Shown here in pieces: positions 381 to 34,980 of a DNA stretch of 64,000 bases. Made by a program: the position numbers and the translations under genes. Position 1 is the stretch's first letter; each line of letters starts with the position of its first letter. Source of the DNA: Cyanobacteria bacterium REEB446 (lineage in GTDB: Bacteria; Cyanobacteriota; Vampirovibrionia; LMEP-6097); assembly GCA_018970325.1 (NCBI GenBank), contig JAGWWP010000005.1, positions 1,594 to 65,593 of the forward strand. Direction: 5' to 3'. A model generated the notes under the pieces. It was not told the origin of the DNA. It searched no databases and saw only the letters and a list, made by a program, of their open reading frames with translations.

Positions 381-568
381 GGCGTGTTGCCGAACTCCAA
401 TTTCTGCGTTTTCGTCGTTCTCATGATCCTCATGTACCCGCAGTAAGCTGAGCTTGTATTTCCGCTTGCTCCCATGCAACACTGATGTCGCAGAGTCGGC
501 ATCGCTGGAAATTACACTGCGGTCATTCGTCCTCCTCAGCCTTGAACTTGTTCGTTTGACTACACGCC
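381..568. repeat. MITE-like palindromic dispersed element (long copy) containing the 30-bp core repeat
   Basis: Terminal inverted repeats GGCGTGTTGCC...GACTACACGCC. Core CTCCAATTTCTGCGT at 395-409. Internal blocks (TCATGATCCTCATGTAC, ACTGCGGTCATTCGTCCTCCTCAGCCTTGAACTTG) recur in the argJ copy (33.9 kb) and the 4.8-kb copy. Confidence 0.6.
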
Positions 569-572
569 ATTC

Positions 573-1175
573 TTATGACAGATGTAAATCTTTCTCTTTT
601 AAATCTGAAAAAAAGCTTTTACCCTTAGCATTCAGCTCATCTATTTTTCTAACTACATCATTTTCTATATAGCTAAGAATCTGTTGTGCGTAATTATCAG
701 CATCTTCTTTAATTCTTCTAGCTTTAAGTAAAGCCTGCTCTTCAAATCTCTGAGCCTTTTCTATTGCTTGCATTCTAATAGTCTCAGCATCTGATTCAGC
801 ATCTTTAGTTAATCGTTTTGCATGTTCACTGCATTCATTAAATAAACTTTTCGCCTCATGTTCAGCTGATCTTTTTATTTGACTTTCATCTAAAAGCTTC
901 TCTGCTTGGTCTTTAGCCCTAATAAGCATAGTTTCGCATTCCTGTTTAGTCCTAGTAAGAAGATCATCAGCCTGTTTCCTAGCTTCAGTAAGTTCCTTAT
1001 CTCTTTTCTCAATAAGCTGCCTAGCCTCTTTTATTTCCTCTGGGATAGTCGCATAAAGATCTTCAAAAGCTCTCATCAAGTACTCTGGATCAATCATTTT
1101 CTGATTAATCATCGGTATGTTCTTAGCCTGTTCTATATATTCGCCGATTTCATCTAGTTTGCTGAAAATATCCAA
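573..1175 (-). CDS. coiled-coil protein, ATP-synthase-b / V-ATPase-E-like (function uncertain)
   Basis: 200-aa ORF, highly charged, continuous heptad-like K/E/A/R/Q composition and no TM segment. Overlaps coaD by 26 nt. Confidence 0.3.
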   Translation of the reverse strand: MDIFSKLDEIGEYIEQAKNIPMINQKMIDPEYLMRAFEDLYATIPEEIKEARQLIEKRDKELTEARKQADDLLTRTKQECETMLIRAKDQAEKLLDESQIKRSAEHEAKSLFNECSEHAKRLTKDAESDAETIRMQAIEKAQRFEEQALLKARRIKEDADNYAQQILSYIENDVVRKIDELNAKGKSFFSDLKEKDLHLS

Positions 1176-1677
1176 TATTTCTTCCCTCCAAATATTTACT
1201 CACACAATCTGGAACGAGAGTGCTTACATCTCCCCCCAATTCTAGCAATTCCCACACCCTGCTTGCCCTTATAAAAGAATATTCTGGGCTAGTCATCAAA
1301 AAAACAGTCTCAATAGAATCGTTATATCCTTTTAGAGATAGTGATCTATTTATCTGTGACATCTCTAGTTCCTGCTCAAAATCATTAGCAGCACGAATTC
1401 CCCTAAGCAATATTCTATAATCATTTGCCCTAGCGTAATCTATAACCAAGCCTTCGACTATCGATACCTTAACATTCGAAAGATTCGCCGTAGCTGTTTT
1501 AACTAAAGATTCTCTCTCCTTTGCATTCAAGATGGATTTCTTCCTAGAATTACTAGCTATAGCGATTTCAACACAGTCAAAAATCTCTACTGCTCTTACA
1601 AGCACGTCTAAATGCCCTAAAGTAAAAGGATCAAAACTTCCTGGATAAAGAGCTTTTTTAGCAGGCATTAGTTTCAT
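1150..1677 (-). CDS. coaD: phosphopantetheine adenylyltransferase
   Basis: N-terminal YPGSFDPFTLGHLDV matches the PPAT (T/H)xGH nucleotidyltransferase motif. 175 aa is typical CoaD length. Confidence 0.9.
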   Translation of the reverse strand: MKLMPAKKALYPGSFDPFTLGHLDVLVRAVEIFDCVEIAIASNSRKKSILNAKERESLVKTATANLSNVKVSIVEGLVIDYARANDYRILLRGIRAANDFEQELEMSQINRSLSLKGYNDSIETVFLMTSPEYSFIRASRVWELLELGGDVSTLVPDCVSKYLEGRNIGYFQQTR

Positions 1678-1933: not shown

Positions 1934-3946
1934 TTGCTTAGTACTTCTATAGGTACAAACAAGAGCTTTCTAGAACAAGGAGTAAATCCGAACACCCCAA
2001 CAAACCCAGAACCAACTGGGGCGATTTTTAACGCCGCTAAAGCCTTTAATCAAGGTTTAAAAGGAGAAGTCTCTTCTGCTAGGTCTGATAAGATTAACCC
2101 AAAAAATAAAAAGCCTATCTACGATAAATCGATATCTGGCTACCATGCTGATAATTATTATGGCGAGCGAAATTGGAACAAAGGCTTTGCTTATTCTCTT
2201 TGGGAAAGTGTTCTAAAATCTTGGACTAATGCTTTATTAACGAGTTCCTCAGCAGAAGCAGTAGTAAATGCGATCATCCAAGAAGGTGACGCGACCAAGC
2301 TATCAAACAATTTAGATGAGCACTGTAAGGAATTAAAGAACCTTCTTACAAGCAAAAACCTGTCGGAGACAGAGAGAGAAGCAACTCTTCAGCAGATCAA
2401 AAAGCTTGAAACTGCAAAAATTGATCCAAATAGTATAGAGTACAACGCTTTAAACAATAATATTGAAAAAACCTTTTCTGACTCATTCCTGTCACGCCTA
2501 GTCACAGACATTGGCATAGATCAATCTATCTCTGCTTTTCGTCGAATTTTCCCTGACTTTTCTAAAAAATATCCAATAATTAATACGCTTATTGGTGACA
2601 TTGTCGCAAGACCATTAACTTTTATTCTAAGAACTATTACCGCAGAAAATAATATACTGACTAACTCTTCAAACCATGGAGGCAAAGTGAGCCCTGAGCA
2701 GCAGATCATAATCGAAGCCATGAAAGACACTGGTGTAGCTAAACTAATCGGGTGGATAAGAGGGGAAGATGAAAATGGCGAGAAAAAATTTAGAATTGTA
2801 GATAAAGGAAACGGCGAATTAGTCAAAGAAGAGGCTGGCTTTAATCTTAAAAAAATCCTTGATCCATTTGTGAATAACGTAAACAAGTACCTTCTTGGCA
2901 TTACATCTGGTGAGACACTAAAAGACGCACAGGGTCAAATCCTCTATTCTACAAACTCTCGCGGTGAAAAAGAAGAAATTAAATCACTCGCAAAATTCAA
3001 CCCTATTCATTTTGGCATAACATCCCTAGCCAGCCTTGGTTTAACAGCACTCACCTTAGATAAAAAAGCTCAAGCGACAGGCTTCCAAGATGCTAATACT
3101 CCGTTAAAAGCCTTCGGCTCAATGATACTCAGCAACGCAAACCGCATAGATTCTGCTATGACCAGTTACGCACACGCATCAGTTCGCAAAGGCGAATCCT
3201 TCATGGGTATTTTCCATAATATTATTCCGAAAAAGCTACTAATGCCTATGTGCCAGAACTTCATGAAAGGCTTATCAAATCTACTACCTGGCGAGCTGCT
3301 CAACCCTGCCACCAAATCTATTCTATTGAATATGCTTGTGGAATTCACCGCTCCACCTTTTGTACAGAGCTTTATGCCAAAATCAGAGAAGAGAGCCATT
3401 GATAATGATACTCAATTCGTTTCTCATTCATTAATAAAACCTCCGCTATCTGAACTTATAAACGTCCTTAAAAAAGGCTGGATGTGGTGGGGTAAAAACT
3501 TCCACGCCGCAGTGGGGACCTATCCTGCTGTAATAAAATTAACTCCGACATCGAGTCCTTTCTGGCTTATCCAACAAATCAGCAGTAAAATAACAGGTCG
3601 CACTCCGAAAGATATACCTGGATTATTTAAAGAGAAGGAAGAAGAAGTTTTCGCGAAAGAATTACCAGATCACTTAGCAAGCTATAAAGATACTGGCATT
3701 GGCAAAACCGCCCTCCTCGCCGTCAAGAGCATTCTAAAAACCCCACTCAATGTTACAGATTGGTTAGTAAAATCAGGAGAAGCCAATAAGACTTACTCTA
3801 ATCTAACTAACAGTATCGTATCAGCAGCCAATCTCAAAAATACGCTCAAAGAGCGCATCCACACTAACGCCGCTAACAATATCGCACCAACAGCTAAGTT
3901 GAGAGAGATAATTCAGGGAAAGCAGCTAGCTCAAGCTTTGAACTAA
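1934..3946 (+). CDS. hypothetical protein (670 aa), lineage-specific
   Basis: Long uninterrupted ORF with no recognisable catalytic motifs. Follows a 250-bp AT-rich promoter region and ends at a palindromic terminator. Confidence 0.55.
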   Translation: MLSTSIGTNKSFLEQGVNPNTPTNPEPTGAIFNAAKAFNQGLKGEVSSARSDKINPKNKKPIYDKSISGYHADNYYGERNWNKGFAYSLWESVLKSWTNALLTSSSAEAVVNAIIQEGDATKLSNNLDEHCKELKNLLTSKNLSETEREATLQQIKKLETAKIDPNSIEYNALNNNIEKTFSDSFLSRLVTDIGIDQSISAFRRIFPDFSKKYPIINTLIGDIVARPLTFILRTITAENNILTNSSNHGGKVSPEQQIIIEAMKDTGVAKLIGWIRGEDENGEKKFRIVDKGNGELVKEEAGFNLKKILDPFVNNVNKYLLGITSGETLKDAQGQILYSTNSRGEKEEIKSLAKFNPIHFGITSLASLGLTALTLDKKAQATGFQDANTPLKAFGSMILSNANRIDSAMTSYAHASVRKGESFMGIFHNIIPKKLLMPMCQNFMKGLSNLLPGELLNPATKSILLNMLVEFTAPPFVQSFMPKSEKRAIDNDTQFVSHSLIKPPLSELINVLKKGWMWWGKNFHAAVGTYPAVIKLTPTSSPFWLIQQISSKITGRTPKDIPGLFKEKEEEVFAKELPDHLASYKDTGIGKTALLAVKSILKTPLNVTDWLVKSGEANKTYSNLTNSIVSAANLKNTLKERIHTNAANNIAPTAKLREIIQGKQLAQALN

Positions 3947-3956
3947 ATGATTAGAA

Positions 3957-4118
3957 CTAAGTGGCACACAATTGTGCCGCTCGATCACGACGCTGACTAG
4001 CACTGAAAGCCACTGAAGATTTATCAAGATTAGCAGCAGGTGCTATATGGTTCCTAAGCCAACCAGCTAAAGCATAAACCGAAAATCCGACTGCAACAGG
4101 TGCAACTAAAGGGTTCAT
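3957..4118 (-). CDS. small hydrophobic-N-terminus peptide, paralog 1 (53 aa)
   Basis: ATG (RC of 4116-4118) preceded by GGAGGT 7 nt upstream. Translation: MNPLVAPVAVGFSVYALAGWLRNHIAPAANLDKSSVAFSASQRRDRAAQLCAT. Paralogous to the ORFs at 4419-4583 and 5044-5235. Below the ORF-track size cutoff. Confidence 0.45.
   Translation of the reverse strand: MNPLVAPVAVGFSVYALAGWLRNHIAPAANLDKSSVAFSASQRRDRAAQLCAT
3960..3982. terminator. bidirectional hairpin terminator (GTGGCACACAATTGTGCCGC)
   Basis: Near-perfect palindrome GGCACAcAAtTGTGCC directly after the stop of the + strand 670-aa gene and the stop of the - strand small peptide gene 1. Confidence 0.4.
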
Positions 4119-4338
4119 AAAAGAACCTCCCCAGATATAAACATAAATCCCTCTTCACACAATAAATAAGATTTATAGTTTTTAATTTTTTAAAAGTTTT
4201 ACGACTCTCGCCAACCGAATTTGGTACAGAAACACGGAAAGTTATTAATTTGGTTCCTACTATATTACTGTATAAACTTTAGAATTACCATATTATTCAC
4301 AATTATTTAAGATTTGCCGTTTATCCTTGAGAAATAAT

Positions 4339-4388
4339 AAGCAAAGAGACACCTGCACAATGATAACGCAGAAATTATCGCTGTGCAG
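4339..4388. terminator. hairpin terminator downstream of small peptide gene 2
   Basis: GAGACACCTGCACA...TGTGCAGGCGTCTC, a 14-bp stem with one mismatch. Followed on the minus strand by a T-rich tract (TTTGCTTATTATTTC). The loop contains ACGCAGAAATT, a fragment of the dispersed core repeat. Confidence 0.4.
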
Positions 4389-4418
4389 GCGTCTCGTAAA
4401 AGCTTCACCAGAAAGCTC

Positions 4419-4583
4419 TTAACAGGCAGCTAGGCGATTACCAGTTAATCTGCTATCCGACGAAGATTTAGCCGCAGAGTTAATAATCGGTGCATCTAGA
4501 TTAGCCTTAACAAAGCACTTATTTGCTGCATCTGCAACCTTGAGAACACCGAACATACCACCAGCCAATAATAAAAGTGGCAT
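4419..4583 (-). CDS. small hydrophobic-N-terminus peptide, paralog 2 (54 aa)
   Basis: ATG (RC of 4581-4583) with GAGGT RBS. Translation: MPLLLLAGGMFGVLKVADAANKCFVKANLDAPIINSAAKSSSDSRLTGNRLAAC. The track ORF 4496-4711 is in another frame and is probably spurious. Confidence 0.45.
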   Translation of the reverse strand: MPLLLLAGGMFGVLKVADAANKCFVKANLDAPIINSAAKSSSDSRLTGNRLAAC

Positions 4584-4816
4584 AAATTAACCTCAAAATA
4601 AAACAGTAAAAATAAAAAACCTCTCCTCACACATTTGAAGATTTTTATTAAATTACTGTTTAAAATTAAACATTTTAAGACTTGCGTCAACCATGTTTGG
4701 TACAGAAACATGGAAAGTTATATAAGAATTATTATACAGCCTCTAATGCGGCTAATCAAGTGGGCTTAGGATAATTTAATCTTTCAAGAAACGAATACTC
4801 ATCTACTTTTTACAGT

Positions 4817-4968
4817 CATTCCTCCTCGTCCTGAACTTACACGCTTGCGAGCAGTGCCTTGAACTTATATATTTGCGAGCAATCCCACTGTACATCAGTC
4901 TCCAAGACACTGCTACCAGACTCCAATCTTTACGTTTTCATCGTCCTCAGCTTGGACTTGCGCGTTCC
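4817..4968. repeat. degenerate/composite copy of the MITE-like element
   Basis: Contains CATTCCTCCTCGTCCTGAACTT, TTGCGAGCAGTGCC, TTGCGAGCAATCCC, CTCCAATCTTTACGTTTTCATCGTCCTCAGCTTGGACTTG. All are diverged versions of blocks in the 381-568 and 33.9-kb copies. Confidence 0.5.
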
Positions 4969-4987
4969 TAGACAGTTTCTTTAATTA

Positions 4988-5025
4988 ACAAAGGCAAGAG
5001 TGAAAATTCTTACCTTTGTTAATTG
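4988..5025. terminator. hairpin terminator downstream of small peptide gene 3
   Basis: TTAACAAAGGCAAGA...TCTTACCTTTGTTAA inverted repeat immediately 3' of the stop at 5044 (minus strand). Confidence 0.4.
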
Positions 5026-5043
5026 TGTTTAGTTTATTTAAAT

Positions 5044-5235
5044 TTAAGCTGACTGCAATGTGGGCTTCAACATAGACGAAGCTTGTGAGCGATCATTAGG
5101 AGATCCCGATGTAGCAGAATTTGTCTGTGAATCATAGCTTGATGACGCAGGATTAAAACCATTCTGCCTCGCCTGTCGTAACGCCAAACAAGCAGATAAA
5201 CCTACAACAGATATTGGAGCTAAGAGAACATTCAT
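5044..5235 (-). CDS. small hydrophobic-N-terminus peptide, paralog 3 (63 aa)
   Basis: Track ORF. MNVLLAPISVVGLSACLALRQ..., N-terminal hydrophobic segment and Ser/Thr/Asn-rich tail as in paralogs 1 and 2. GAGGTG RBS. Confidence 0.5.
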   Translation of the reverse strand: MNVLLAPISVVGLSACLALRQARQNGFNPASSSYDSQTNSATSGSPNDRSQASSMLKPTLQSA

Positions 5236-5441
5236 TCAACACCTCAAAATATTTCAGGTGTTTTAAGGACTTGCCAACCAAATTTAATACATAAACTTGG
5301 AAAAGTGTGAAGAAGACCACGCTCAATTAATTCTTTTAAAATCAACTAAACGCTTACATGAACTAGTATAAGCTAATATCAATAAATGCAAAGTTAAAAG
5401 TCATTCATGTCGTATTATCTTTTATGAAAATTTTTTAAGAA

Positions 5442-5471
5442 ACGCCGAAATTAAAGTTCGGCAACAGTGCC
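5442..5471 (+). repeat. core repeat copy (ACGCCGAAATTAAAGTTCGGCAACAGTGCC)
   Basis: Variant of ACGCAGAAATTGGAGTTCGGCAACACGCC, sitting just 3' of the leuA-like gene stop. Confidence 0.4.
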
Positions 5472-5492
5472 TTAGAGATTGCAAGCAGCCCC

Positions 5493-7154: not shown

Positions 7155-7184
7155 GGCACTGTCGCCAATCTCCAATTTTTGCGT
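7155..7184 (-). repeat. core repeat copy abutting the leuA start codon
   Basis: RC reads ACGCAAAAATTGGAGATTGGCGACAGTGCC immediately 5' of the ATG. Confidence 0.5.
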
Positions 7185-7192
7185 TTTCGTGT

Positions 7193-7594
7193 TCAATATG
7201 TAGCATTAAAATCATAAGGATCGAAATCAATAAAATCACCATCCAAGCTCATAGCCGCTGCCGAGAAAGGACTATCCTGACTAATTCTTACACCATTAAT
7301 CACACCACGTAAAAGACCTGTCACACCGCCAGCGACACCACCAATAAAGAAACCTGATGGCACACCAACTAGTCTTGGAAGCAGTCCTTCGCCAAATTCC
7401 GTAGAAAATGATGAAGCATACTGTGAAGACTTAGAAACAGCTCCACGTGCAAGACCAAAAAAACCACCCAAAGGCGCCGAGATTAAAGATGAAGTAACTT
7501 TAGAAACAGCTCCATGAGAGCTGTAAGCAGGACTTGCACCTAAAAGTAAACTTAACGCAAGAACCAAGAAAGATAATCTTTTAAGAAAAGTCAT
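7193..7594 (-). CDS. secreted glycine-rich hypothetical protein
   Basis: N-terminal signal peptide (LSFLVLALSLLLGASPAYS) followed by Gly/Ser-rich repeats (GGFFGLARGAV, GFFIGGVAGGVTGLLRGV). Confidence 0.4.
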   Translation of the reverse strand: MTFLKRLSFLVLALSLLLGASPAYSSHGAVSKVTSSLISAPLGGFFGLARGAVSKSSQYASSFSTEFGEGLLPRLVGVPSGFFIGGVAGGVTGLLRGVINGVRISQDSPFSAAAMSLDGDFIDFDPYDFNATY

Positions 7595-17783: not shown

Positions 17784-18935
17784 ATGTTAATTGACGATTT
17801 TGATTTTGAGCTACCAGGGGAATTAGTCGCTAAGTATCCACTAAATAAAAGGGATAATTCTCGCTTGCTTTATTATAAGCGAGAAATTCAGGAAGCACCA
17901 AATCCCCAAGGCACTATTTCACAAGAACTTAATAAAAATATCGAACATAAATCCTTTCAAGATATCTGCTCCATTTTAAAAGCAGGTGATATTTTAGTCA
18001 GGAATGTCACTAGAGTGTTAGCGGCGAGATTTTTTGTGATAGATAAAGAGAAGCCTGAAAACAAAGCCATTGAAATACTTCTGGTTAAGGAAAACGCAGA
18101 AATTGGAGTTTGCGAGCAGTCCCATGATAAAAAATATCGCTGGACGGCTCTAGCCAAGCCTAGGAAAAAAATTAAAACTAATCCTCAATCTTATATCATA
18201 AGTGGCTCATCCGAAGAAATAATTATTTTCAAGGGAAACACAGAAAATGGAGTTGTGCAGCGATCTTCGAATGAAGATGGGATGATGATCGTCGAATTCA
18301 AAAGCTATGAGCAATTTATAAACATAATCACGAATCACGGCACTATGCCTATACCACCTTATCTACAAAGGAGTGCTGAAGATAGTGATAAAGAACGCTA
18401 TCAGACAGTCTATTCTAAACAAGACTCTCTCGGCAGCAGTATTGCAGCGCCTACTGCTGGATTACATTTCACCGAAGAAATTATTCAAGCACTTACAAGA
18501 AAAGGAGTTGAATTTATAGACTTAAATCTAGATGTAGGCATAGGAACCTTTAAGCCTGTCAGCGTAAGCGAAGTAAAAGACCATAAGATGCATTTCGAGA
18601 CTTATGAAATTATCTCTGAAAACTGGGATAAAATTCAGTCAGCCAAAGCAGAAGGGAGAAGGATAATCGCTATCGGCACTACTAGCTTACGCTGTCTTGA
18701 AAGCATAGCTATCACAGGTAAATTACGTGGCGAGACTGATTTATACATATACCCTGGGAATTTTAAATTTAAAATTATAGATGGGCTTCTCACTAATTTT
18801 CATCTACCTAAATCCACTTTACTACTATTAGTAAGCACATTAATTGGCATAGAGGAATGTAAAGCTCTTTACAGGATAGCCGTTGAAGAAAAATATCGAT
18901 TCTTTAGTTATGGTGACTGCTGCCTTTTGCTTTAA
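17784..18935 (+). CDS. queA: S-adenosylmethionine:tRNA ribosyltransferase-isomerase, with an in-frame repeat insertion
   Basis: DFDFELPGELVAKYPL...RLL matches the QueA N-terminus. C-terminal LHFTEE, GTFKP and IAIGTTSLR motifs also match. 383 aa is ~35-40 aa longer than typical. The core repeat at 18094-18123 encodes ...ENAEIGVCEQSHD.... Confidence 0.85.
   Translation: MLIDDFDFELPGELVAKYPLNKRDNSRLLYYKREIQEAPNPQGTISQELNKNIEHKSFQDICSILKAGDILVRNVTRVLAARFFVIDKEKPENKAIEILLVKENAEIGVCEQSHDKKYRWTALAKPRKKIKTNPQSYIISGSSEEIIIFKGNTENGVVQRSSNEDGMMIVEFKSYEQFINIITNHGTMPIPPYLQRSAEDSDKERYQTVYSKQDSLGSSIAAPTAGLHFTEEIIQALTRKGVEFIDLNLDVGIGTFKPVSVSEVKDHKMHFETYEIISENWDKIQSAKAEGRRIIAIGTTSLRCLESIAITGKLRGETDLYIYPGNFKFKIIDGLLTNFHLPKSTLLLLVSTLIGIEECKALYRIAVEEKYRFFSYGDCCLLL
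18094..18123 (+). repeat. core repeat copy inserted in-frame inside queA
   Basis: ACGCAGAAATTGGAGTTTGCGAGCAGTCCC. Confidence 0.55.
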
Positions 18936-18936
18936 A

Positions 18937-18966
18937 ACGCAGAAATTGGAGTTTCGCTATACGCCC
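18937..18966 (+). repeat. core repeat copy between queA stop and adk start
   Basis: ACGCAGAAATTGGAGTTTCGCTATACGCCC begins 1 nt after the queA stop and ends 21 nt before the adk ATG. Confidence 0.55.
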
Positions 18967-25999: not shown

Positions 26000-26040
26000 A
26001 AACTTTATTTTACTCGGAATAGCATCATTAACGCAGAAAT

Positions 26041-26070
26041 TGGAGTTTGGCTACAGTCCCGAACTAATTT
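26041..26070 (+). repeat. core repeat copy, intergenic
   Basis: ACGCAGAAATTGGAGTTTGGCTACAGTCCC. Confidence 0.5.
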
Positions 26071-28607: not shown

Positions 28608-29579
28608 ATGCACACCGCCTACCTGTCTCTAGGATCTAATTTAGGAGATAGACAAAGAAATTTGGAAACTGCTCTTTCACAGATACTTCAATGTGAGGGA
28701 GTGAAGATTTTAAAATGCTCAACTTGGCTTGAAAACCCTGCAATAGAAGAAGCAGGTCCAAATCCTTTTCTAAATGGTGTCATTAAAATATCTGTAAATT
28801 TATCTCCTATAGAACTTTTAAAAGAATTACAGCGGATTGAATTGAGCATTGACTGTAATAGAGTGGAGCGTGGTAGAAAATCAGCACGAATTATAGATAT
28901 AGATATTCTGCTTTTTGATAGACTTAAAATAGATTCTGCGGAATTGACTATTCCTCATCCTCGCATGTTCAGTAGGAGTTTCGTCTTAAAACCGCTTAAT
29001 GAAATAGAACCAAAGATAGTGCAAGAAACCGTTTATTCTTATTTTAAACTTAAATCAGAGTATAAAATTCGCAAAATGATGCTTGCGGATTTAGATCAAA
29101 TATGCCGCATAGAAGCAGATGCCTACGGTGAAGTACACTGGACTCGGGATAATTTCGTCAGTGAATTAGATAATACTGTTGGTGATTATAATGTTTTATG
29201 TAAAGATGATAATGAAATTTTAGGTTATCTTGGCTCTTGGATGATCATAGATGAAATGCATATTACGACTATAGCTACTGCTAAAAATCACATCAGGAAA
29301 GGTGTCGCAGAAGCTCTTTTAATAGCCCAAATTTTTAAAGCTCTAGAACAGAATATTAAAGCACTTACCCTTGAAGTAAGAGTAAGTAATATTAAAGCTC
29401 AAGGTCTCTATGAAAAATATCTATTTAAAAGACAGGGAATCCGTAAAAGATACTACGAAGATACTCTAGAGTCAGCCTTAATCATGTGGACCGAAGATAT
29501 AAATTCTGATGAGTTTCAGAAAAATTTTAGAGAAAGGCTGATTGAGCTTGTAAATAAGAGTGAATTGTTTGATCAGTAA
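28608..29579 (+). CDS. folK: HPPK (2-amino-4-hydroxy-6-hydroxymethyldihydropteridine pyrophosphokinase) fused to a RimI-like GNAT acetyltransferase
   Basis: N-terminus AYLSLGSNLGDR is the HPPK signature. The C-terminal ~150 aa carry a GNAT fold (LGSWMIIDEMHITTIAT...RKGVAEALL...LEVRVSNIKAQGLYEKYLF). Confidence 0.7.
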   Translation: MHTAYLSLGSNLGDRQRNLETALSQILQCEGVKILKCSTWLENPAIEEAGPNPFLNGVIKISVNLSPIELLKELQRIELSIDCNRVERGRKSARIIDIDILLFDRLKIDSAELTIPHPRMFSRSFVLKPLNEIEPKIVQETVYSYFKLKSEYKIRKMMLADLDQICRIEADAYGEVHWTRDNFVSELDNTVGDYNVLCKDDNEILGYLGSWMIIDEMHITTIATAKNHIRKGVAEALLIAQIFKALEQNIKALTLEVRVSNIKAQGLYEKYLFKRQGIRKRYYEDTLESALIMWTEDINSDEFQKNFRERLIELVNKSELFDQ

Positions 29580-30007: not shown

Positions 30008-31081
30008 TTAAATATCGATCAAAAGCTTACCGTCAGCTATGTTCAAGCCTTTCTTAAAACCTGGATCTTCATCTAGTGCAGAGATACCACGATTCGCAAG
30101 CTTTAATAAATAAGGCATAGTCGAATTACACAGTGCATGAGTACTAGTATTAGGCACAGCACCTGGCATATTAGCCACCCCATAATGAAGCACATTATGC
30201 TTAACGATTATCGGATTATCATGGCTAGTAACTTCACTAGTTTCTATACATCCACCTTGGTCTACAGCCACGTCTACGATTACCGAACCATAACCCATCT
30301 GCTTAACCATACTCTCAGTGACCAACATAGGTGCTTTTTTACCAGTAATTAATACAGCACCGATAACTAAATCAGATTCTAAGACTCTCTTCTCTATCGC
30401 AGAAGAAGTACTAAAAATAGTAGCTACTCTGCTACCGTATAAATCATCTATCTCTGAAAGAGCATTTAAATTATTATCAAAAACATTAACATGCGCGCCC
30501 ATACCCACCGCTATTTTCAAAGCTGCTCTACCAACTATACCAGCACCAAGAATAGTTACTATCGCAGGAGGTACACCAGCAGCACCACCTAAAAGAATGC
30601 CTCTCCCTGGATGCTGATCATTAACACCTCTCTCTAAGAATCTTGCCCCGATCTGAACAGACATGCGCCCAGCTACCTCTGACATTGGCTTCAACAGTGG
30701 CAATCTACCTGATCTATCTTCTATAGTCTCATAAGCTATACAGTGAGCCCCAGTGCGAGTAAGTGCATCAGTTAAAGTCTTACTAGAAGCTAAGTGTAAA
30801 TAAGTAAAGAGTATGTGCCTTTCCTCGATTAACTTATACTCTTGCTCTAAAGGCTGCTTTACCTTGACGATAATATCTGATTTCTTAAAAACTTCTTCTG
30901 TGGTATCTAAGATAACCGCTCCAGCTTTTCTATAAGCTTCATCATGAAAACTACTACCAGTACCCGCACCAGCCTGAACATAGACATTATGTCCAGCTTC
31001 ATGCAAAGTACGAGCCCAGTCTGGAGTCATAGCTACTCTGTTTTCATGTGCAAGTATTTCCTTAGGAACGCCTATTTTCAT
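30008..31081 (-). CDS. ald: alanine dehydrogenase
   Basis: MKIGVPKEI...ENRVA...TP N-terminus and Rossmann fold GAGIVGRAA. Confidence 0.85.
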   Translation of the reverse strand: MKIGVPKEILAHENRVAMTPDWARTLHEAGHNVYVQAGAGTGSSFHDEAYRKAGAVILDTTEEVFKKSDIIVKVKQPLEQEYKLIEERHILFTYLHLASSKTLTDALTRTGAHCIAYETIEDRSGRLPLLKPMSEVAGRMSVQIGARFLERGVNDQHPGRGILLGGAAGVPPAIVTILGAGIVGRAALKIAVGMGAHVNVFDNNLNALSEIDDLYGSRVATIFSTSSAIEKRVLESDLVIGAVLITGKKAPMLVTESMVKQMGYGSVIVDVAVDQGGCIETSEVTSHDNPIIVKHNVLHYGVANMPGAVPNTSTHALCNSTMPYLLKLANRGISALDEDPGFKKGLNIADGKLLIDI

Positions 31082-31103: not shown

Positions 31104-31133
31104 GGGCGTGTAGCGAAGCTCCAATTTCTGCGG
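31104..31133 (-). repeat. core repeat copy ~22 nt upstream of ald start
   Basis: RC reads CCGCAGAAATTGGAGCTTCGCTACACGCCC. Confidence 0.5.
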
Positions 31134-32147
31134 CTAAACTTTCGCAGGCATCTCTGCTACTAAGATTTTTCCTTTATGCTTTTCGTAAGGAGATATCTTC
31201 GCACCAGAAACTACTATACAGTCTTCAAGCTCCGCTCCCTCACCGATTTCCACATTATCCCAGATCACACAGTTTTTCAAGCTTACAGTATCAGCGATCA
31301 CAGTCTTATCACCAATTTCATTATCTTCGATTAAACTTGCGAGTGGTGATATATCCTGAGAGCGAATTAAGGGTTTAAAACTTTCAAAGTTTACTGAACC
31401 AGAAGCTATATCTTTCATCGTCTGAATGTACTGCTGTGGTGTACCAATATCAGCCCAATAAATATCTGCATCCACCGCCACAGCCTGCATATAAACTCCA
31501 GCTTCTAGAAGCTTAGGGAAAAGATCATGAGCGACATCATATGTGGGAGCTTCTTCCACATCAGGAATCATATCTAGAATCTCAGGTTCAAAAAAATAAA
31601 TACCCGTATTAGCCCAATTAGAGAGAGCTTCTTCTGGCTTCGGCTTTTCTTGGAAATTAATAACCCGACCTTTACCATCAGTTACAACTACACCAAAATG
31701 AGTTGTATCTTGCACCTGCATCTTAGCGATAGTAACTTTACAGTTATTGTCTTTAACTGCTTTTTGGTGTGCTTTTAATAATTTAGTTAAATCAGCATTA
31801 GTAAGCGCATCGCCCATGATAATACAGACAGTAGAGCCTTTCAAATATTCCCTGCAAGCCCTGATACCACCAGCAACACCAGAGAGTTTCGATTCATGTA
31901 TAAAATGAATATCTATACCTTCTCTCTGTTTAATATCAGCAAAATAATCATGTAACTTCGACGCAAGATGATATGTATTAGATACTACATCTGTAATACC
32001 GTGCTTTTTCAGTAAGAGGAGTATATGCTCCATTACTGGTCTGCCAGCTATCTGCACAAGTGGTTTAGGTAAAATATTAGTGAGAGGTTCCAGTCTAGAA
32101 CCGATTCCAGCGGCAAGCACCATTGCTTTTATTTTTTTGTCTTCCAT
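31134..32147 (-). CDS. NDP-sugar pyrophosphorylase (nucleotidyltransferase + left-handed beta-helix C-terminal domain)
   Basis: AMVLAAGIGSRLEPLT...KPLV signature. Confidence 0.75.
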   Translation of the reverse strand: MEDKKIKAMVLAAGIGSRLEPLTNILPKPLVQIAGRPVMEHILLLLKKHGITDVVSNTYHLASKLHDYFADIKQREGIDIHFIHESKLSGVAGGIRACREYLKGSTVCIIMGDALTNADLTKLLKAHQKAVKDNNCKVTIAKMQVQDTTHFGVVVTDGKGRVINFQEKPKPEEALSNWANTGIYFFEPEILDMIPDVEEAPTYDVAHDLFPKLLEAGVYMQAVAVDADIYWADIGTPQQYIQTMKDIASGSVNFESFKPLIRSQDISPLASLIEDNEIGDKTVIADTVSLKNCVIWDNVEIGEGAELEDCIVVSGAKISPYEKHKGKILVAEMPAKV

Positions 32148-32230
32148 CTGCTAGGATATTGTAGCAAAATTCATAGAACTACCGCCAATATAGAGCTTTA
32201 AAAATTAAAATAGCGTTACAATTAATTGAT

Positions 32231-33253
32231 ATGAGTTTAATTAAGCAAGAAAAAAGAGAAATCATCGTCGTTATCACGCTGGTAGCTCTTTGTTTATTAT
32301 CTTCGATCCTTGGCATGGTTCTTTTAAAAGACGGGCAAGGTCAAATGCACTCTGGGAACGAAGTCAAAAAAGAGTTATTATCTCAAATTGGTAATTATCA
32401 GGATTATATTCCAATCATTGGGCTTGAAGGTGTTATTTATGATGGCTTTGCAAAAAGCAGCCCTTTTAGTTCTGCTACCGATGCAGTTAGCTGTAAACAG
32501 GAATTACAAAAAGCCTTAGATGATAAAAAAGCGAAGGCTGTTCTTTTAAGAATGAATAGCCCAGGTGGAACAGTTGCAGCTAGCCAAGAAATTTACCAAC
32601 TGGTAAAGAAACTTCGCGAAGCTAAAAAACCAGTATTAGTTTCTATGGGAGACATATGTGGCAGTGGCTGCTATTACATAGCGAGTGCCGCTGATTCCAT
32701 AGTCGCTAACCCTGGCACTCTCACTGGCAGCATAGGTGTTATCAGTCAGGGAGTAAATCTTAAAGGTTTTTTTGATAGGCTTGGTATTAAAGATCAAACA
32801 TTTAAAGCAGGTAAATTTAAAGACATAGGCTCCAGCCAAAGAGAATTAATGCCTGAAGAAATAAGTATCTTAAATAAGCTCCTTGAGAACAGTTATGATC
32901 AATTTCTAAATGATATTCATGCCGGTAGAGGCATAGAGATAGATAAGCTTCAGGTTATCGCAAGAGGGATAATTTACACTGGCTCTCAAGCCAAAGAAGT
33001 CGGTCTAGTAGATCATCTTGGGACACTAGAAGACTCTAAACTACTTTTAAAGGATTTATTAAAAACTAAATACAAAGTAAAAGGTGCTGACAGTCTAACA
33101 TTCAGAGAGACTTGGGATGGCGGTCAATTTTCTTCACTAGAAGGTCTGTTCGGTATGAAGATGTCACAGAAAGACTCTATAAAGAATCTTTTAACTGGTG
33201 AAAACGGTACAGCATCTTCCGTATTTCAACCACTATGGCTAATGGAAAGATGA
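32231..33253 (+). CDS. sppA: signal peptide peptidase SppA (36K type)
   Basis: ClpP/crotonase fold with MNSPGG...GSGCYYIASAAD...GSIGV. Confidence 0.8.
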   Translation: MSLIKQEKREIIVVITLVALCLLSSILGMVLLKDGQGQMHSGNEVKKELLSQIGNYQDYIPIIGLEGVIYDGFAKSSPFSSATDAVSCKQELQKALDDKKAKAVLLRMNSPGGTVAASQEIYQLVKKLREAKKPVLVSMGDICGSGCYYIASAADSIVANPGTLTGSIGVISQGVNLKGFFDRLGIKDQTFKAGKFKDIGSSQRELMPEEISILNKLLENSYDQFLNDIHAGRGIEIDKLQVIARGIIYTGSQAKEVGLVDHLGTLEDSKLLLKDLLKTKYKVKGADSLTFRETWDGGQFSSLEGLFGMKMSQKDSIKNLLTGENGTASSVFQPLWLMER

Positions 33254-34980
33254 AAATCAAAGAACTATTTATCCCAGTAATTCCACTTACAGAAGAGCTT
33301 ACTGGAAAAGAACTTAGGATAGTAGATCATCTGAATTTAACAGGTTCTAGTCCTAGGAATATAGGTTTCATCCCTGTTACGGAGTTGTATACATCCCAGT
33401 TTAATAGCGAAAACGCAGGAATTGGAGCTCAGCAGCAGTGCCTAGAAATTAAAGTTGCTGCTCTTGCCAACGGTGAAGTGCCTTCCGAAGAGGAAAAATC
33501 TTTATTACTTTCACAGGGTATACAGGCTTATAGTTATGCCTTAATGCCTCTAGCTCTTTACTACTGTGCAGAGGGTTACACTCTTTCAGCTAAAGCCTAC
33601 ATACCATCACTACCTAAATACTTCTCCATGACAGGTTTTCACTCAGGAATTAAAGCTGCGTCTAAAGAAAACAACTTAGATATGGCAGTTTTATTTTCAG
33701 AGAAACCGTGTTCTTGGGCTGGTACTTTTACAAAAAATGCGATGAAAGCTATATGCGTAGAACATAACATAGAATTAAAATCTAAAACCGTTCACGGTCT
33801 TATCGCTAATTCTGGTAACGCGAACTGCTGCACTGGAGAAGAAGGGATTAAAGCAGATAATGATTTAAGGAAACTACTTGAAGATTTTCTTGAAAATACC
33901 GTAGAAATTGAAGTCCGCGAGCAGTCCACACAAGACACGGTTGCCAGACTTGCAAGTTCAAGGCTGAGGAGGACGAATGACCGCAGTGTACTTAATGTAC
34001 ATGAGGATCATGAGGACGATGAAAACGCAGAAATTGGAGTCCGGCAACCGTGTCCAAAAGTGCTGTCGGCAAGTACGGGGGTTATAGGACGTAAGCTTGA
34101 CCTGAGTCACGCTAAAAAGGTTTTCACAGAAAAAATAAAAGAAAAGAAAAATTCTAAATCCTATGAAGCTGTCTATGATTTCGCTAGAGCGATTATGACC
34201 ACAGATACTGTTCCGAAGATCAGTCAGGATCAGAAACAGCGATTTCTTGGCATCTGTAAAGGTTCTGGCATGATAGCTCCAAACATGGCAACCATGCTCG
34301 GTTTTATTATTACGGATGTGAGAATTTCTGGACTTGATAATGAAAAAGTTACGGAATTTATGCAAGAAACTGTAAGTGAAATCGTCAATGCTACTTTTAA
34401 TAACATCAGCGTAGATGGCGATACTAGTACTAATGACATGGTTCTCCTCTTAAATAATTTCACTGGAGAGGAAATCAACCAAGAAGAGTTTAAATCATCT
34501 CTTGAAGAGGTCTGCAAAGGACTCTGCTATCAGATTATTGCAGATGGTGAAGGTTTAACCAAAATCATAGACCTAAAGCTAGAAAATTTACCCATCAGTC
34601 CATTAAATCTTCAAAAAATCGGCAGAAATATTATTAATTCGATGTTAGTTAAAACCGCTATCTTCGGTAATGACCCCAATTGGGGGCGCATAGTTGCAGC
34701 TTTCGCACGGGAAGAAGCGCTACTAGAAGGTTTAGACATGAGCTTAATTGAAGTTAATCTATTAGATAGCTGTGTTTTTAAAAATGCTTCTGCACAAATT
34801 TTTGGAGCGGATTTAGATAAACTCGCTAAGCGATTGAAACAGGCAAGGCACGTAGAGATAGTTATAAGTTTAACTAAAAATAAATCAACTATCGAAAGCA
34901 AAGCTTTAAATTCTGCACATTTCCTTGGAAATGATCTAAGTTATGACTATGTCAAGATTAATGCAGAATACACTTCTTGA
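33235..34980 (+). CDS. argJ: glutamate N-acetyltransferase / ornithine acetyltransferase, with ~130-aa N-terminal extension and in-frame MITE-like insertion
   Basis: The ArgJ-homologous region begins at M132 (ATG 33628: MTGFHSGIKAA...NSGNANCCTG). Self-cleavage motif PNMATMLGFIITD. 33235-33627 is an in-frame N-terminal extension of unknown function. ~57 codons at 33.90-34.09 kb come from the palindromic repeat. Confidence 0.8.
   Translation: MANGKMKIKELFIPVIPLTEELTGKELRIVDHLNLTGSSPRNIGFIPVTELYTSQFNSENAGIGAQQQCLEIKVAALANGEVPSEEEKSLLLSQGIQAYSYALMPLALYYCAEGYTLSAKAYIPSLPKYFSMTGFHSGIKAASKENNLDMAVLFSEKPCSWAGTFTKNAMKAICVEHNIELKSKTVHGLIANSGNANCCTGEEGIKADNDLRKLLEDFLENTVEIEVREQSTQDTVARLASSRLRRTNDRSVLNVHEDHEDDENAEIGVRQPCPKVLSASTGVIGRKLDLSHAKKVFTEKIKEKKNSKSYEAVYDFARAIMTTDTVPKISQDQKQRFLGICKGSGMIAPNMATMLGFIITDVRISGLDNEKVTEFMQETVSEIVNATFNNISVDGDTSTNDMVLLLNNFTGEEINQEEFKSSLEEVCKGLCYQIIADGEGLTKIIDLKLENLPISPLNLQKIGRNIINSMLVKTAIFGNDPNWGRIVAAFAREEALLEGLDMSLIEVNLLDSCVFKNASAQIFGADLDKLAKRLKQARHVEIVISLTKNKSTIESKALNSAHFLGNDLSYDYVKINAEYTS
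33903..34056 (+). repeat. MITE-like palindromic element inserted in-frame in argJ
   Basis: Flanking direct repeats AGAAATTGAAGTCCGC / AGAAATTGGAGTCCGG. Terminal inverted repeats GACACGGTTGCC...GGCAACCGTGTC. Internal blocks match the 381-568 copy in reverse orientation. Confidence 0.6.

What the first reader, a model, noticed from the sequence alone, without database searches (positions are those of the whole stretch)
381..34056. Dispersed ~30-bp core repeat (ACGCAGAAATTGGAG-TT-SG-C...CC) with MITE-like palindromic long forms, including in-frame insertions in conserved genes
At least ten copies occur in 64 kb, in both orientations: 381-409, 4921-4935 (degenerate), 5442-5471, 7155-7184, 18094-18123, 18937-18966, 26041-26070, 31104-31133, ~33901 and 34025-34054. 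Three copies are embedded in 150-190-bp elements (381-568, 4817-4968, 33903-34056) that share internal blocks (TCATGATCCTCATGTAC; ACTGCGGTCATTCGTCCTCCTCAGCCTTGAACTTG). The long copies carry terminal inverted repeats (GGCGTGTTGCC/GACTACACGCC; GACACGGTTGCC/GGCAACCGTGTC). The copies at 18094 (queA) and 33903-34056 (argJ) lie inside otherwise well-conserved enzymes without breaking the frame; both encode an ...ENAEIGV... peptide. The copy at 7155-7184 supplies the first 14 codons of the leuA-like ORF. This matches how Rickettsia palindromic elements behave (in-frame insertion into protein-coding genes). The core sequence here does not match any repeat family I can recall from memory (RPE, Correia, ERIC, REP, BOX), but I have no database to check that.
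Basis: seen in the sequence. Interest (0 to 1): 0.75.

Follow-up and report, generated by a model that had tools for sequence, protein, structure and literature searches.

The report
Gene-invading mini-transposon family in Melainabacteria
The repeat is a real, previously undescribed 121-bp miniature transposon of a group of non-photosynthetic cyanobacterial relatives; with its 5-bp target duplication it adds exactly 42 codons, so it is often found read through in frame inside housekeeping genes, where it later shrinks to an 11-codon remnant.

Summary
The core has 10 matches against 0.27 expected, and about 13 copies or remnants lie in the first 34 kb. The same 17-mer recurs many times in five Vampirovibrionia (Melainabacteria) MAGs that are about 90% identical to the window in DNA.

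The full unit is 121 bp. It has a near-invariant interior and 16-bp terminal inverted repeats whose outer bases differ between copies in a compensated way. It is flanked by a 5-bp AT-rich target-site duplication, so 121+5 = 126 nt = 42 codons.

Filled and empty sites exist between sister genomes. One site is empty in the window, full in one relative and a solo in another. The 30-bp "cores" are therefore deletion remnants that keep the right end.

About 40% of copies lie inside ORFs, almost always sense and in one frame (…HEDHEDDENAEIGV…). Intergenic copies show no orientation bias.

In queA and argJ the segments are true insertions: more distant orthologues lack them, and AlphaFold2 gives pLDDT below 50 there.

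It works like a Rickettsia palindromic element but is an unrelated MITE family. No transposase partner was found. The leuA "first 14 codons" claim is not supported.

The parts
33934..34054 (+). Canonical full 121-bp element inside argJ. Its arms are GACACGGTTGCCAGAC and GTCCGGCAACCGTGTC. It is flanked by the 5-bp duplication CACAA (33929-33933) and CAAAA (34055-34059). It is read in frame as DTVARLASSRLRRTNDRSVLNVHEDHEDDENAEIGVRQPC.
   Evidence: The nhmmer match covers model positions 4-119, E = 1e-34. It is a row of alignment A2. The flanking duplication is shown and the translation. The orthologous copy is present in L010.
33898..33928 (+). Degenerate solo remnant (core plus right arm) lying exactly 5 nt upstream of the full copy. 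It is read in frame as TVEIEVREQST.
   Evidence: the repeat finder family D1, 81% identity. The sequence is shown. The same solo+5nt+full layout occurs at 11 or more other loci.
33407..33442 (+). Solo remnant in the N-terminal extension of argJ, read as ENAGIGAQQQC. The relatives L010/P0183 and P0171 carry solo+full at this site, and P0175 carries the long form. P0203, P0213, P0218 and P0220 have an empty site.
18090..18122 (+). 33-nt solo remnant in queA, read as ENAEIGVCEQS. Removing it restores the loop length of solved QueA structures.
   Evidence: PDB alignments. The series of orthologue variants at this site is empty / solo / deleted intermediates / solo+full, with 425-aa proteins carrying the full form. 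L110 gives the DNA of the solo+full state.
18234..18267 (+). Second, degenerate solo remnant in queA, read as NTENGVVQRSS.
   Evidence: Core match with 2 mismatches. nhmmer match to model positions 88-118. P0078 has a longer version of it, and more distant orthologues lack it.
18934..18965 (+). Solo remnant in the queA-adk spacer, abutting the queA stop codon.
   Evidence: The same copy is present in L110.
381..568 (-). Long form of 188 nt: the full unit with an extra segment of about 70 nt in the central loop. It is intergenic, between tRNA-Gly (243-317) and ORF 573-1175.
   Evidence: The inverted repeats I1 and I2 pair it with the argJ copy.
4907..4975 (-). Decayed, internally deleted copy. 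The body is shortened at the repeated TGAGGA motif, and the core reads CGTAAAGATTGGAGTC.
4811..4857 (-). Left-end remnant (GGCACTGCTCGCAAGC GTGTAAGTTCAGG…), the only left-only remnant in the window.
5440..5471 (+). Solo remnant just downstream of the stop codon of the leuA-like gene, antisense to that gene.
7156..7192 (-). Solo remnant filling the spacer between the stop codon of ORF 7193-7594 and the probable ATG (7154) of the leuA-like gene. It is not part of the coding sequence.
26030..26060 (+). Solo remnant in the spacer between two minus-strand genes (25307-25999 and 26064-27401), antisense to both.
31104..31133 (-). Solo remnant between the minus-strand genes 30008-31081 and 31134-32147. 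It is shared with L181 but not with L010.
29194..29211 (.). Empty target site (AAAGAT|GATAATGAAA). The same site carries a full copy in L181 and a solo in L010.

Best explanation
**What it is.** It is a family of non-autonomous DNA transposons (MITEs) of a genus-level clade of Vampirovibrionia (Melainabacteria, order Caenarcaniphilales by MAG labels).

**The unit.** The mobile unit is 121 bp. It has 16-bp terminal inverted repeats, a subterminal pairing (CAAGTTC with GAAATTG), and a near-invariant interior with a small central hairpin.

**How it moves.** It is pasted into AT-rich 5-bp targets by a staggered cut that is repaired into a 5-bp duplication (shown). A DDE-type transposase supplied in trans is inferred; the enzyme was not found.

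**Why it sits in genes.** Because 121+5 = 126 nt, every insertion adds 42 codons. One sense frame is free of stops and encodes a very hydrophilic, acidic and basic peptide (GTVAERTSSRLRRTNDRSVLRVHEDHEDDENAEIGVRQQC). Insertions in that frame into loops of proteins are tolerated and persist as read-through, probably disordered segments. Other frames and orientations are purged (inferred from the frame statistics).

**How it decays.** After insertion the copies shrink by deletions at short direct repeats and microhomologies. They may also be lost by recombination between tandem copies. The queA and argJ segments of the window are such insertions: solos in queA, and solo, solo and full in argJ.
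For: **Target-site duplication.**
- Of 59 full copies, 15 have a perfect 5-bp duplication and 13 more match at 4 of 5 positions. Mean identity is 3.22 of 5 against 1.71 (sd 0.13) when flanks are shuffled, and only the exact register works.
- The result was repeated on 93 metagenome copies: 2.91 against 1.87 (sd 0.10).
- The target is AT-rich.

**Filled and empty sites between genomes about 90% identical in DNA.**
- L086 is filled and L005 is empty.
- L092 carries a mini-form and L059 is empty.
- Window 29194-29211 is empty, L181 is full and L010 is a solo, all at one site.

**Series of variants in orthologues.** QueA and ArgJ orthologues run from empty through full (+42 aa) to shortened forms.

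**Length.**
- The consensus is 121 nt with only frames +0 and -0 open.
- All 27 genic two-ended copies have (length+5) divisible by 3.

**Frame and orientation.**
- Among two-ended copies, 31 of 81 lie in ORFs in frame +0 and 1 in reverse. Among solos, 49 of 122 are in frame +0 and 1 in another frame.
- In the metagenome set, 39 of 93 full copies are in frame +0 and none otherwise.
- Combined, full copies in ORFs are 70:1, p = 6e-20.
- Intergenic copies show no orientation bias relative to neighbouring genes.

**No selection on the peptide.** Genic and intergenic copies have the same divergence and the same codon-position pattern, p = 0.55.

**Peptide properties.** GRAVY is -1.34 for frame +0 and -0.26 for frame -0.

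**Insertions map to disordered regions.** In the AlphaFold2 model of the window ArgJ (pTM 0.81), pLDDT is below 50 at residues 56-67 and 224-271, which are the element-derived segments.

**Solved structures.** The QueA and ArgJ structures lack these segments.

**Distribution.** Copies occur many times in five related MAGs and in 115 metagenome stretches. Only chance singletons occur elsewhere.
Against: - **No transposase.** No transposase gene, no IS-like multi-copy DNA and no long element with matching ends was found in about 1.5 Mb of this clade plus the window. The mobilising enzyme is therefore pure inference from the duplication.
- **Variable ends.** The outer 12-16 bp of the ends vary between copies with compensating changes, while the interior is conserved. 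This is the reverse of the usual MITE pattern. A transposase acting on double-stranded ends does not explain it.
- **One-sided remnants.** Remnants keep the right end about 4 times more often than the left, also in intergenic DNA. Random deletion does not predict this.
- **Ambiguous polarity.** At several solo versus solo+full sites the direction of change cannot be told: insertion next to a solo, or recombination between two cores.
- **Translation not shown.** That the inserted segments are translated is assumed from open frames in MAGs, not demonstrated.
Confidence: 0.8

Rival explanations
1. It is a REPIN-like element: two inverted REP-like halves mobilised as a single-stranded hairpin by a single-copy RAYT/IS200-type (HUH, Y1) transposase. 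The solos would correspond to REP singlets.
For: - It forms a long hairpin, z = -4.8 to -7 as DNA on either strand.
- The terminal stem is kept by compensated changes, and there is no G-U versus A-C strand asymmetry.
- Singlets appear as decayed remnants, and tandem clusters occur, as described for REPINs (PMC3116915).
- No multi-copy transposase was found, which fits a single-copy domesticated enzyme.
Against: - Full copies have a fixed 5-bp target-site duplication. IS200/IS605-type and RAYT-type movement does not produce one (established knowledge).
- About 40% of copies lie inside genes, whereas REPINs are extragenic.
- The two halves are alike for only about 27 nt.
- No Y1 transposase was seen in the window or in the loci, although whole genomes were not searched.
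Confidence: 0.05
2. It is a multi-copy structured RNA, such as a regulatory RNA, ribozyme or processing signal, and the RNA fold is the selected feature.
For: - In the terminal helix, 13 of 14 pairs covary, with 93% of cells paired. The central hairpin covaries as well.
- 182 cells show a change on both sides, against 55 in shuffles. Slid registers drop to 26-51% paired.
- Interior loops are near-invariant across copies.
Against: - Intergenic copies have no orientation bias relative to neighbouring genes.
- G-U and A-C mismatches are about equally frequent in the stem.
- 40% of copies are inside ORFs.
- The copies have target-site duplications and empty sites.
- There is no Rfam match even at E = 10.
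- Inverted repeats can stay complementary through arm-to-arm conversion or template switching without any selection on RNA (established knowledge).
Confidence: 0.04
3. It is a retro-type or one-ended copying element. The many copies that share the right (3') end and are cut short at variable points on the left would be 5'-truncated products of incomplete copying.
For: - Right-only remnants outnumber left-only ones 71:17 and 88:23. In the window the ratio is 9:1.
- The left boundaries of the remnants are variable.
Against: - At one site the full copy (L181) and the solo (L010) share the same flanks and duplication, so the truncation happened after insertion.
- QueA and ArgJ orthologues show stepwise shortening at fixed sites.
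- The duplication has a fixed 5-bp length and the element has terminal inverted repeats.
- There is no poly-A tail, no reverse transcriptase and no rolling-circle Rep gene in the sampled DNA.
Confidence: 0.03
4. The element-encoded peptide is a selected protein module, for example an acidic His/Asp/Glu-rich linker or metal-binding loop, and it spreads because it benefits the host proteins.
For: - Use of one frame is nearly exclusive, even for solos, which have no stop codon in any of the six frames (49 of 50).
- The motif HEDHEDDE recurs in many unrelated proteins.
Against: - Genic copies are no better conserved than intergenic ones and show no excess change at third codon positions.
- More than half of the copies are intergenic.
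- Closely related orthologues differ in having none, a solo or a full copy.
- The segments are modelled as low-confidence loops.
- The single frame of the solos follows simply if they descend from full in-frame copies.
Confidence: 0.05

Closest known systems
Rickettsia palindromic elements (RPE-1 to RPE-10; Ogata et al. 2000, as summarised in PMC10969869 and PMC1779305)
   Same: - Both are palindromic dispersed repeats of 100-150 bp found in intergenic DNA and inside housekeeping genes.
- Both are inserted in frame and read through as extra peptide segments compatible with the fold.
- Both proliferate in specific lineages.
- Both leave shortened relics in genes (63-84 bp in pheT there; 33-36 nt solos here).
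   Different: - The host is unrelated: Vampirovibrionia, not Rickettsiales.
- No sequence relationship was found or expected.
- This element has a clear 5-bp target-site duplication, a defined 121-bp unit with 121+5 = 126, filled and empty sites, and ends that covary.
- The genomes are free-living-type MAGs of about 36% GC, not reduced intracellular genomes (the last point is inferred from the gene content of the window).
Classical bacterial MITEs with in-frame or intragenic copies (Correia/CREE of Neisseria, ERIC, BOX, QMITE1 of Coxiella, MITEb and MITEe of Anabaena; review PMC10969869)
   Same: - Short and non-coding.
- Terminal inverted repeats and a target-site duplication.
- Many copies, with occasional in-frame fusions to host ORFs.
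- Presumed to be mobilised in trans.
   Different: - The fraction of copies inside ORFs is far higher here (about 40%), and one frame is strictly used.
- The duplication is 5 bp and AT-rich rather than TA (Correia; own knowledge).
- The outer ends are variable and the interior is conserved.
REPINs and REP singlets mobilised by RAYTs (PMC3116915)
   Same: - Hairpin-forming doublet of inverted halves.
- Singlets as decayed remnants.
- Tandem clusters.
- No multi-copy transposase.
   Different: - REPINs are extragenic and have no target-site duplication.
- REPINs are tied to a flanking RAYT gene, and none of that was seen here.
Tn3-derived miniature elements (TIMEs) and other families that make 5-bp duplications (Tn3, Tn7, Mu, Tn5053, IS2-type); from own knowledge, as a lead only
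   Same: - The target duplication is 5 bp and AT-rich.
- The ends begin with G-rich bases (GGG or GGC).
   Different: - There is no 38-bp GGGG…TAAG Tn3-type end.
- No Tn3-type or other transposase was found.
- Copies often sit next to each other, which is the opposite of Tn3 target immunity.

Membership tests
MITE (non-autonomous DNA transposon) | Short (under about 500 bp) and without coding capacity for a transposase | tested here: met
   The unit is 121 bp, with variants of 46-202 bp.
MITE (non-autonomous DNA transposon) | Terminal inverted repeats | tested here: met
   The 16-bp arms are 93% paired across 59 copies, and a subterminal 5-7-bp pairing follows them.
MITE (non-autonomous DNA transposon) | Target-site duplication of fixed length | tested here: met
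   The duplication is 5 bp. Mean identity is 3.22 of 5 against 1.71 for shuffled flanks (more than 11 sd), repeated as 2.91 against 1.87.
MITE (non-autonomous DNA transposon) | Multi-copy, with filled and empty sites between related genomes | tested here: met
   More than 230 elements were found in 0.75 Mb of five MAGs. Empty sites are L005, L059 and window 29194-29211.
MITE (non-autonomous DNA transposon) | A related autonomous element or transposase with the same ends in the same or a related genome | tested here: not met
   None was found in the window or in about 1.5 Mb of related loci. Whole genomes could not be scanned, so absence is not shown.
Rickettsia palindromic elements | Sequence match to one of the RPE families, and a host in Rickettsiales | tested here: not met
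   The hosts are Vampirovibrionia/Melainabacteria MAGs. No RPE model was available to score against. The exact 17-mer search found only chance singletons outside this clade.
Rickettsia palindromic elements | In-frame insertion into protein-coding genes, tolerated as an extra peptide | tested here: met
   This concerns behaviour, not ancestry.
REPIN/RAYT system | Extragenic location and no target-site duplication | tested here: not met
   About 40% of copies are genic, and a 5-bp duplication is present.
REPIN/RAYT system | A single-copy RAYT (Y1 transposase) gene flanked by the repeats | tested here: inconclusive
   None was seen in the window ORFs or among the multi-copy ORFs of the loci. Complete genomes were not searched.
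Tn3-derived miniature elements | Ends of about 38 bp beginning GGGG, and a Tn3-family transposase in the host | tested here: not met
   The ends begin GGC, GGG or GAG and match each other for only about 27 nt. No large transposase ORF was found. The comparison with Tn3 ends is from memory.
Any Rfam RNA family | Covariance-model match | tested here: not met
   The gathering-threshold scan of the window gave only three tRNAs. Sensitive scans of the full and long copies gave nothing, or one snoRNA hit at E = 4.

The most novel reading that the evidence does not exclude
The conserved 31-nt core plus right arm is not just debris. It is either kept by selection, as a binding site for a host or transposase-derived protein, or it is the part the copying machinery really needs. 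In this reading the element is mobilised or maintained by a structure-dependent mechanism that reads a paired terminal stem of arbitrary sequence together with a fixed subterminal motif, and that still leaves a 5-bp duplication. This would account for four things: the compensated variation of the ends, the 4:1 survival of right ends even in intergenic DNA, the frequent placement of a full copy exactly 5 nt after a solo, and the lack of any ordinary multi-copy transposase. Such a mechanism would be of a kind not described for bacterial MITEs.
Probability: 0.12. Interest if true: 0.75.

Novelty: new member of a known kind. Interest (0 to 1): 0.55.

Why it matters
- **A second, independent case.** It gives a second case, with clearer mechanistic evidence, of the phenomenon made famous by Rickettsia: selfish DNA that lives inside essential protein-coding genes. 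Here the arithmetic is explicit, since 121 bp plus a 5-bp duplication makes 42 codons.
- **The whole life cycle can be read.** Empty site, full insertion, tandem or nested forms and an 11-codon relic are all seen among genomes about 90% identical in DNA. This makes the clade a natural experiment on how proteins acquire and trim disordered loops.
- **Practical consequences for annotation.** The elements inflate and fragment gene calls in Melainabacteria MAGs, where intergenic copies are annotated as 42-70-aa hypothetical proteins. They create length variants of conserved marker genes, and they probably break assemblies.
- **Open leads.** The unexplained features (covarying ends, right-end survival, no visible transposase) are worth following up for people who study transposition.

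Tried and rejected
- **Known RNA family.** Rfam at gathering threshold on the whole window and sensitive scans on two copies found nothing. I also checked the CUGAGGA…CGAAA stretches by eye for a hammerhead. There is no stem II or III pairing and no Rfam hit, so I rejected it.
- **Known plasmid or phage element.** blastn of the consensus found no match. Of nine IMG/VR contigs carrying the 17-mer, eight are chance hits. The ninth (L113) is a cellular-looking defence locus with copies inside hsdR and an SNF2 helicase, not a phage.
- **Search for the autonomous partner.**
  - Left and right ends with matching arms 0.25-7.5 kb apart gave only other MITEs, plus one 4.9-kb pair in L058 that encloses housekeeping genes (queC, queF, purD-like).
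  - The multi-copy ORFs are ABC and DUF4143 ATPases, some of which themselves carry insertions.
  - No IS-like repeats of 500 bp or more were found.
- **Selection on the peptide.** The codon-position test was negative.
- **Strand of a putative RNA.** G-U versus A-C counts gave no asymmetry.
- **Peptide search in the 5.8-billion-protein set.** It returned only miscalled small ORFs, not host proteins, so it did not measure how many protein families carry insertions.
- **The look-up of encoding contigs for the window's own QueA.** The protein is not on record.
- **Recombination between two direct cores as the sole origin of solos.** I considered this. It is possible at sites with a solo next to a full copy, but it is not needed, because L181 and L010 show a direct change from full to solo.

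Full report

Yes. ACGCAGAAATTGGAGTT has 10 matches in the window at up to 3 mismatches, against 0.27 expected by chance; no shuffle reaches 10. The repeat finder groups 8 plus-strand and 4 minus-strand copies of about 31 nt and links the long copies at 381-568, about 4906-4949 and 33940-34054 as inverted repeats of each other. A profile search gives 13 hits, all between 382 and 34052 and none in the remaining 30 kb. The corrections are:
- the "26041" copy is at 26030-26060;
- copies at 18234-18267 and 33407-33442 were missed;
- 4817-4968 is two decayed copies.

**2. Where does the window come from, and how wide is the family?**

Ninety-five of them come from five MAGs labelled Vampirovibrionia, Candidatus Melainabacteria, Caenarcaniphilales, "bacterium", and one mislabelled "Proteobacteria". 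The other 14 are single hits in unrelated taxa, as chance predicts.

The five MAGs are 88-96% identical to each other, and to the window, in orthologous DNA. The family is therefore documented for one genus-level clade. The window's QueA and ArgJ are 100% identical to proteins of an NCBI MAG "Cyanobacteria bacterium" on a 71-kb contig. A metagenome scan with a body motif gave 115 more stretches.

**3. Anatomy**

Seventy-one copies carry both the body and the core, and 59 of them have exactly the same length and align without a gap. The unit is 121 nt:

GGCACTGTTGCCGAAC GAA CAAGTTC AAGGCTGAGGAGGACGAATGACCGCAGTGTAC-nnnnn-GTACATGAGGATCATGAGGACGACGAAAACGCA GAAATTG GA GTTCGGCAACAGTGCC

The interior is 90-100% conserved. 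The outer arms fall into four main classes plus unique variants:
- GGCACTGTTGCC / GGCAACAGTGCC
- GGGCGTGTAGCC / GCTACACGCCC
- GGGACTGCTCGC / GCGAGCAGTCCC
- GAGACCGCTGCAC / GTGCAGCGGTCTC

The two arms always match each other. Thirteen of 14 pairs in the terminal helix show changes on both sides. Overall, 92.9% of cells are paired against 81.5% in shuffles. There are 182 double-change cells against 55, and slid registers fall to 26-51% paired. The central hairpin covaries too (GTGTAC/GTACAT, GTGCAC/GTGCAT, GTGTAT/ATACAT). G-U and A-C mismatches are about equally frequent, so neither strand is favoured. As DNA, either strand folds as a long hairpin with z = -4.8 to -7.

Size variants share this frame:
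- a 199-202-nt form with an extra module in the central loop (window 381-568 is a 188-nt version);
- internal deletions at the repeated TGAGGA motif;
- a 46-nt mini-hairpin (left arm + core + right arm);
- "solos" that keep only the core and the right arm.

**4. It is a transposon**

Full copies are flanked by a 5-bp direct duplication:
- 15 of 59 are perfect and 13 more match at 4 of 5 positions;
- mean identity is 3.22 of 5 against 1.71 ± 0.13 for shuffled flanks, and only the exact register gives the signal;
- the result repeats on 93 metagenome copies, 2.91 against 1.87 ± 0.10.

The target is AT-rich at positions 2, 4 and 5.

Filled and empty sites exist:
- L086 has a full copy where L005 has the uninterrupted sequence with a single copy of the 5-mer;
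- L092 has a 46+5-nt mini-form where L059 is empty.

The clearest case is window 29194-29211. The window is empty (AAAGAT|GATAATGAAA). L181 has a full copy with AAGAT/AAAAT duplications. L010 has a 36-nt solo at the same place, with the same right flank. That series shows directly that solos are deletion products of full insertions.

**5. Why in frame?**

121+5 = 126 nt = 42 codons. The consensus has stop codons in four frames and is open in +0 (GTVAERTSSRLRRTNDRSVLRVHEDHEDDENAEIGVRQQC) and in -0.

Among 236 elements in the five MAGs plus the window:
- 31 of 81 two-ended copies are embedded in an ORF open for at least 120 nt on each side in frame +0, and 1 is in reverse;
- 49 of 122 right-end solos are in frame +0, and 1 is in another frame.

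In the metagenome set, 39 of 93 full copies are in +0 and none otherwise. Taken together, full copies in ORFs are 70:1 (p = 6e-20). All 27 genic two-ended copies have (length+5) divisible by 3.

Intergenic copies show no orientation preference relative to their neighbours: 18 same/same, 21 opposite/opposite, 36 mixed. The bias is therefore a filter acting on insertions inside genes, not a property of insertion.

The +0 peptide is much more hydrophilic and charged than the -0 peptide: GRAVY -1.34 against -0.26, and 16 against 6 charged residues. That is a sufficient reason, by inference. Solos have no stop codon in any frame yet are also confined to +0. This follows if they descend from in-frame full copies. 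Genic copies are no more conserved than intergenic ones and show no third-position excess, so there is no sign that the peptide itself is selected.

**6.

*QueA.* Against the Thermotoga and Bacillus structures, the window protein has extra residues at LVKE|NAEIGVCEQS|HDKKYRW. Removing those 11 residues (33 nt, 18090-18122) restores the loop length. Orthologues show a series of variants at this one site:
- empty in more distant relatives (LVKEV-EPLCW);
- solo in the window;
- several intermediates (…FLDHEDDKNAEIGVCEQS…);
- 425-aa proteins with solo + full (NAEIGVCDQRQ-DGTAHKRASSRLRRTNDRSVLLVHEDHEDDENAEIGVCEQS).

The DNA of one such relative reads solo-AAGAT-[121 bp]-CTGAT. A second, degenerate solo lies at 18234-18267.

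*ArgJ.* In this clade ArgJ has a conserved N-terminal extension, so the 581-aa ORF 33235-34980 is correct and the 33407-33442 solo is genic.
- At that site relatives are empty, solo, solo+full, solo+long form (also in frame) or a left-retaining deletion.
- At the second site the window has solo + 5 nt + full (33898-34054). Relatives have nothing (FIESTYKL|SPKVLSAS), a solo only, or additional partial duplications.

Against the solved OAT2 structure, 58 residues lie between positions that are 8 apart in the structure. An AlphaFold2 model of the window protein (pTM 0.81) has pLDDT below 50 at residues 56-67 and 224-271, the element-derived segments, between a confident helix and a strand.

*leuA-like gene.* The element at 7156-7192 lies between the stop codon of the upstream gene and the ATG at 7154 (MRAIEIYDTTLRDG). 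The TTG-started ORF that includes it is an artefact of mechanical ORF calling.

**7. What is not explained**

- **No transposase.** No transposase, IS-like repeat or long element with these ends turned up in the window or in about 1.5 Mb of related DNA. The 5-bp staggered duplication points to a DDE-type enzyme. From general knowledge, the Tn3, Tn7, Mu, Tn5053 and IS2-type families make 5-bp duplications. None could be tested.
- **Compensated variation of the outer arms.** This is unusual. The orthologous argJ copies of the window and L010 differ by three compensated pairs while body and flanks are conserved. L032 and L051 differ in the left arm only. Possible causes are arm-to-arm conversion, template switching in quasi-palindromes, conversion from other copies, or subfamilies with distinct founder copies. 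I could not tell these apart.
- **Right ends survive more often.** Remnants keep the right end about 4:1 over the left (71:17, 88:23), also in intergenic DNA. At the queA and argJ sites the native left flank already reads GAA or GAAAA, giving microhomology with the core's GAAAAC. This offers a partial mechanism.
- **Full copies next to solos.** At 11 or more loci a full copy sits exactly 5 nt after a solo, usually of the same arm class. This fits either unequal crossover at the duplicated 5-mer followed by deletion, or insertion next to an existing end.

**8. Comparison with known systems**

Functionally this is the Rickettsia-palindromic-element phenomenon (PMC10969869, PMC1779305): dispersed palindromic repeats, nearly half inside genes, in frame, leaving short relics. 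It is not a member of that family, since the host is different and no sequence link exists.

Structurally it meets the MITE definition (size, terminal inverted repeats, fixed target duplication, copy number, filled and empty sites), except that the autonomous partner is missing. It differs from REPINs (PMC3116915) by its duplication and its genic location. No Rfam, plasmid or phage match exists. A literature search for Melainabacteria together with MITEs returned nothing relevant.

**9. Verdict**

This is a real and well-defined feature: a new MITE family of Vampirovibrionia with RPE-like in-frame colonisation of housekeeping genes. It is a new member of a known kind. Interest is moderate to good. 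The phenomenon is known, but this case shows the arithmetic and the whole life cycle with unusual clarity. It also leaves three mechanistic oddities that could hide something less ordinary.

Noticed in passing
window 48504-48537 and 57948-57981: A perfect 34-bp direct repeat (AATCTGCCATAATATGATTTGGTGAATAATCAAA) brackets a 9.4-kb cassette. The cassette holds a type I restriction-modification system (hsdR 48522-51323, hsdS 51320-52768, hsdM 52765-54240), a subtilase (54237-56831, minus strand) and an AAA/nSTAND3 ATPase (56843-57826, minus strand). It looks like a defence island inserted with an att-like duplication.
   Followed up: partly
window 14907-15035: Three copies of the palindrome TATCCAATATATTAGATA lie at 40-nt spacing, directly upstream of a hipA-like toxin gene (13724-14905, minus strand). 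They resemble the TATCC-N8-GGATA operators of E. coli hipBA (from memory), so this is probably an operator array.
   Followed up: partly
window 34100-64000: This half has no copy of the element, against about 12 in the first 34 kb (Poisson p about 3e-5). It also has lower G+C (0.33-0.35 against 0.36-0.39) and holds the defence island. It may be younger or differently constrained DNA.
   Followed up: no
window 4190-5308: Three related segments of about 56 nt lie at about 500-nt spacing (family D2) in an ORF-poor stretch (3946-5493) that also contains two decayed element copies. They may be tandem small paralogous genes.
   Followed up: no
window 17892-17936 (QueA residues 37-51): A further 15-residue insert specific to this clade, EAPNPQGTISQELNK, is absent from more distant QueA orthologues and from solved structures. 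It has no similarity to the element.
   Followed up: no
P0001-P0049 (proteins of related MAGs and metagenomes): Gene callers annotate intergenic copies of the element as 42-70-aa "hypothetical proteins" in NCBI, JGI and ENA records. This inflates the gene counts of these MAGs.
   Followed up: partly
L113 (IMGVR_UViG_3300042866_002883), 3612-3667 and 10185-10278: A contig filed as viral in IMG/VR carries two copies of the element, inside a type I hsdR gene and an SNF2 helicase gene. Its genes look like a cellular defence locus of the same bacterial clade, not a phage.
   Followed up: partly
L002 215-469: One copy of the element carries a different insertion of about 130 nt, itself palindromic, in its central loop (GGATCCGCTG…CAGCGGATCC-like arms). 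The loop therefore seems to be a hot spot for nested insertions or for a second small element.
   Followed up: no
L070 376-1641 and L060 1346-2647: A MalK-like ABC ATPase carries solo+full (…NENAEIGDDSEQSLEGRVAERTSSRLRRTNDRSVLNVHEDHEDNENAGIGV…), and a DUF4143 AAA ATPase carries a solo (…DNENAEIGVRQQC…). This shows the breadth of host proteins that carry insertions.
   Followed up: no
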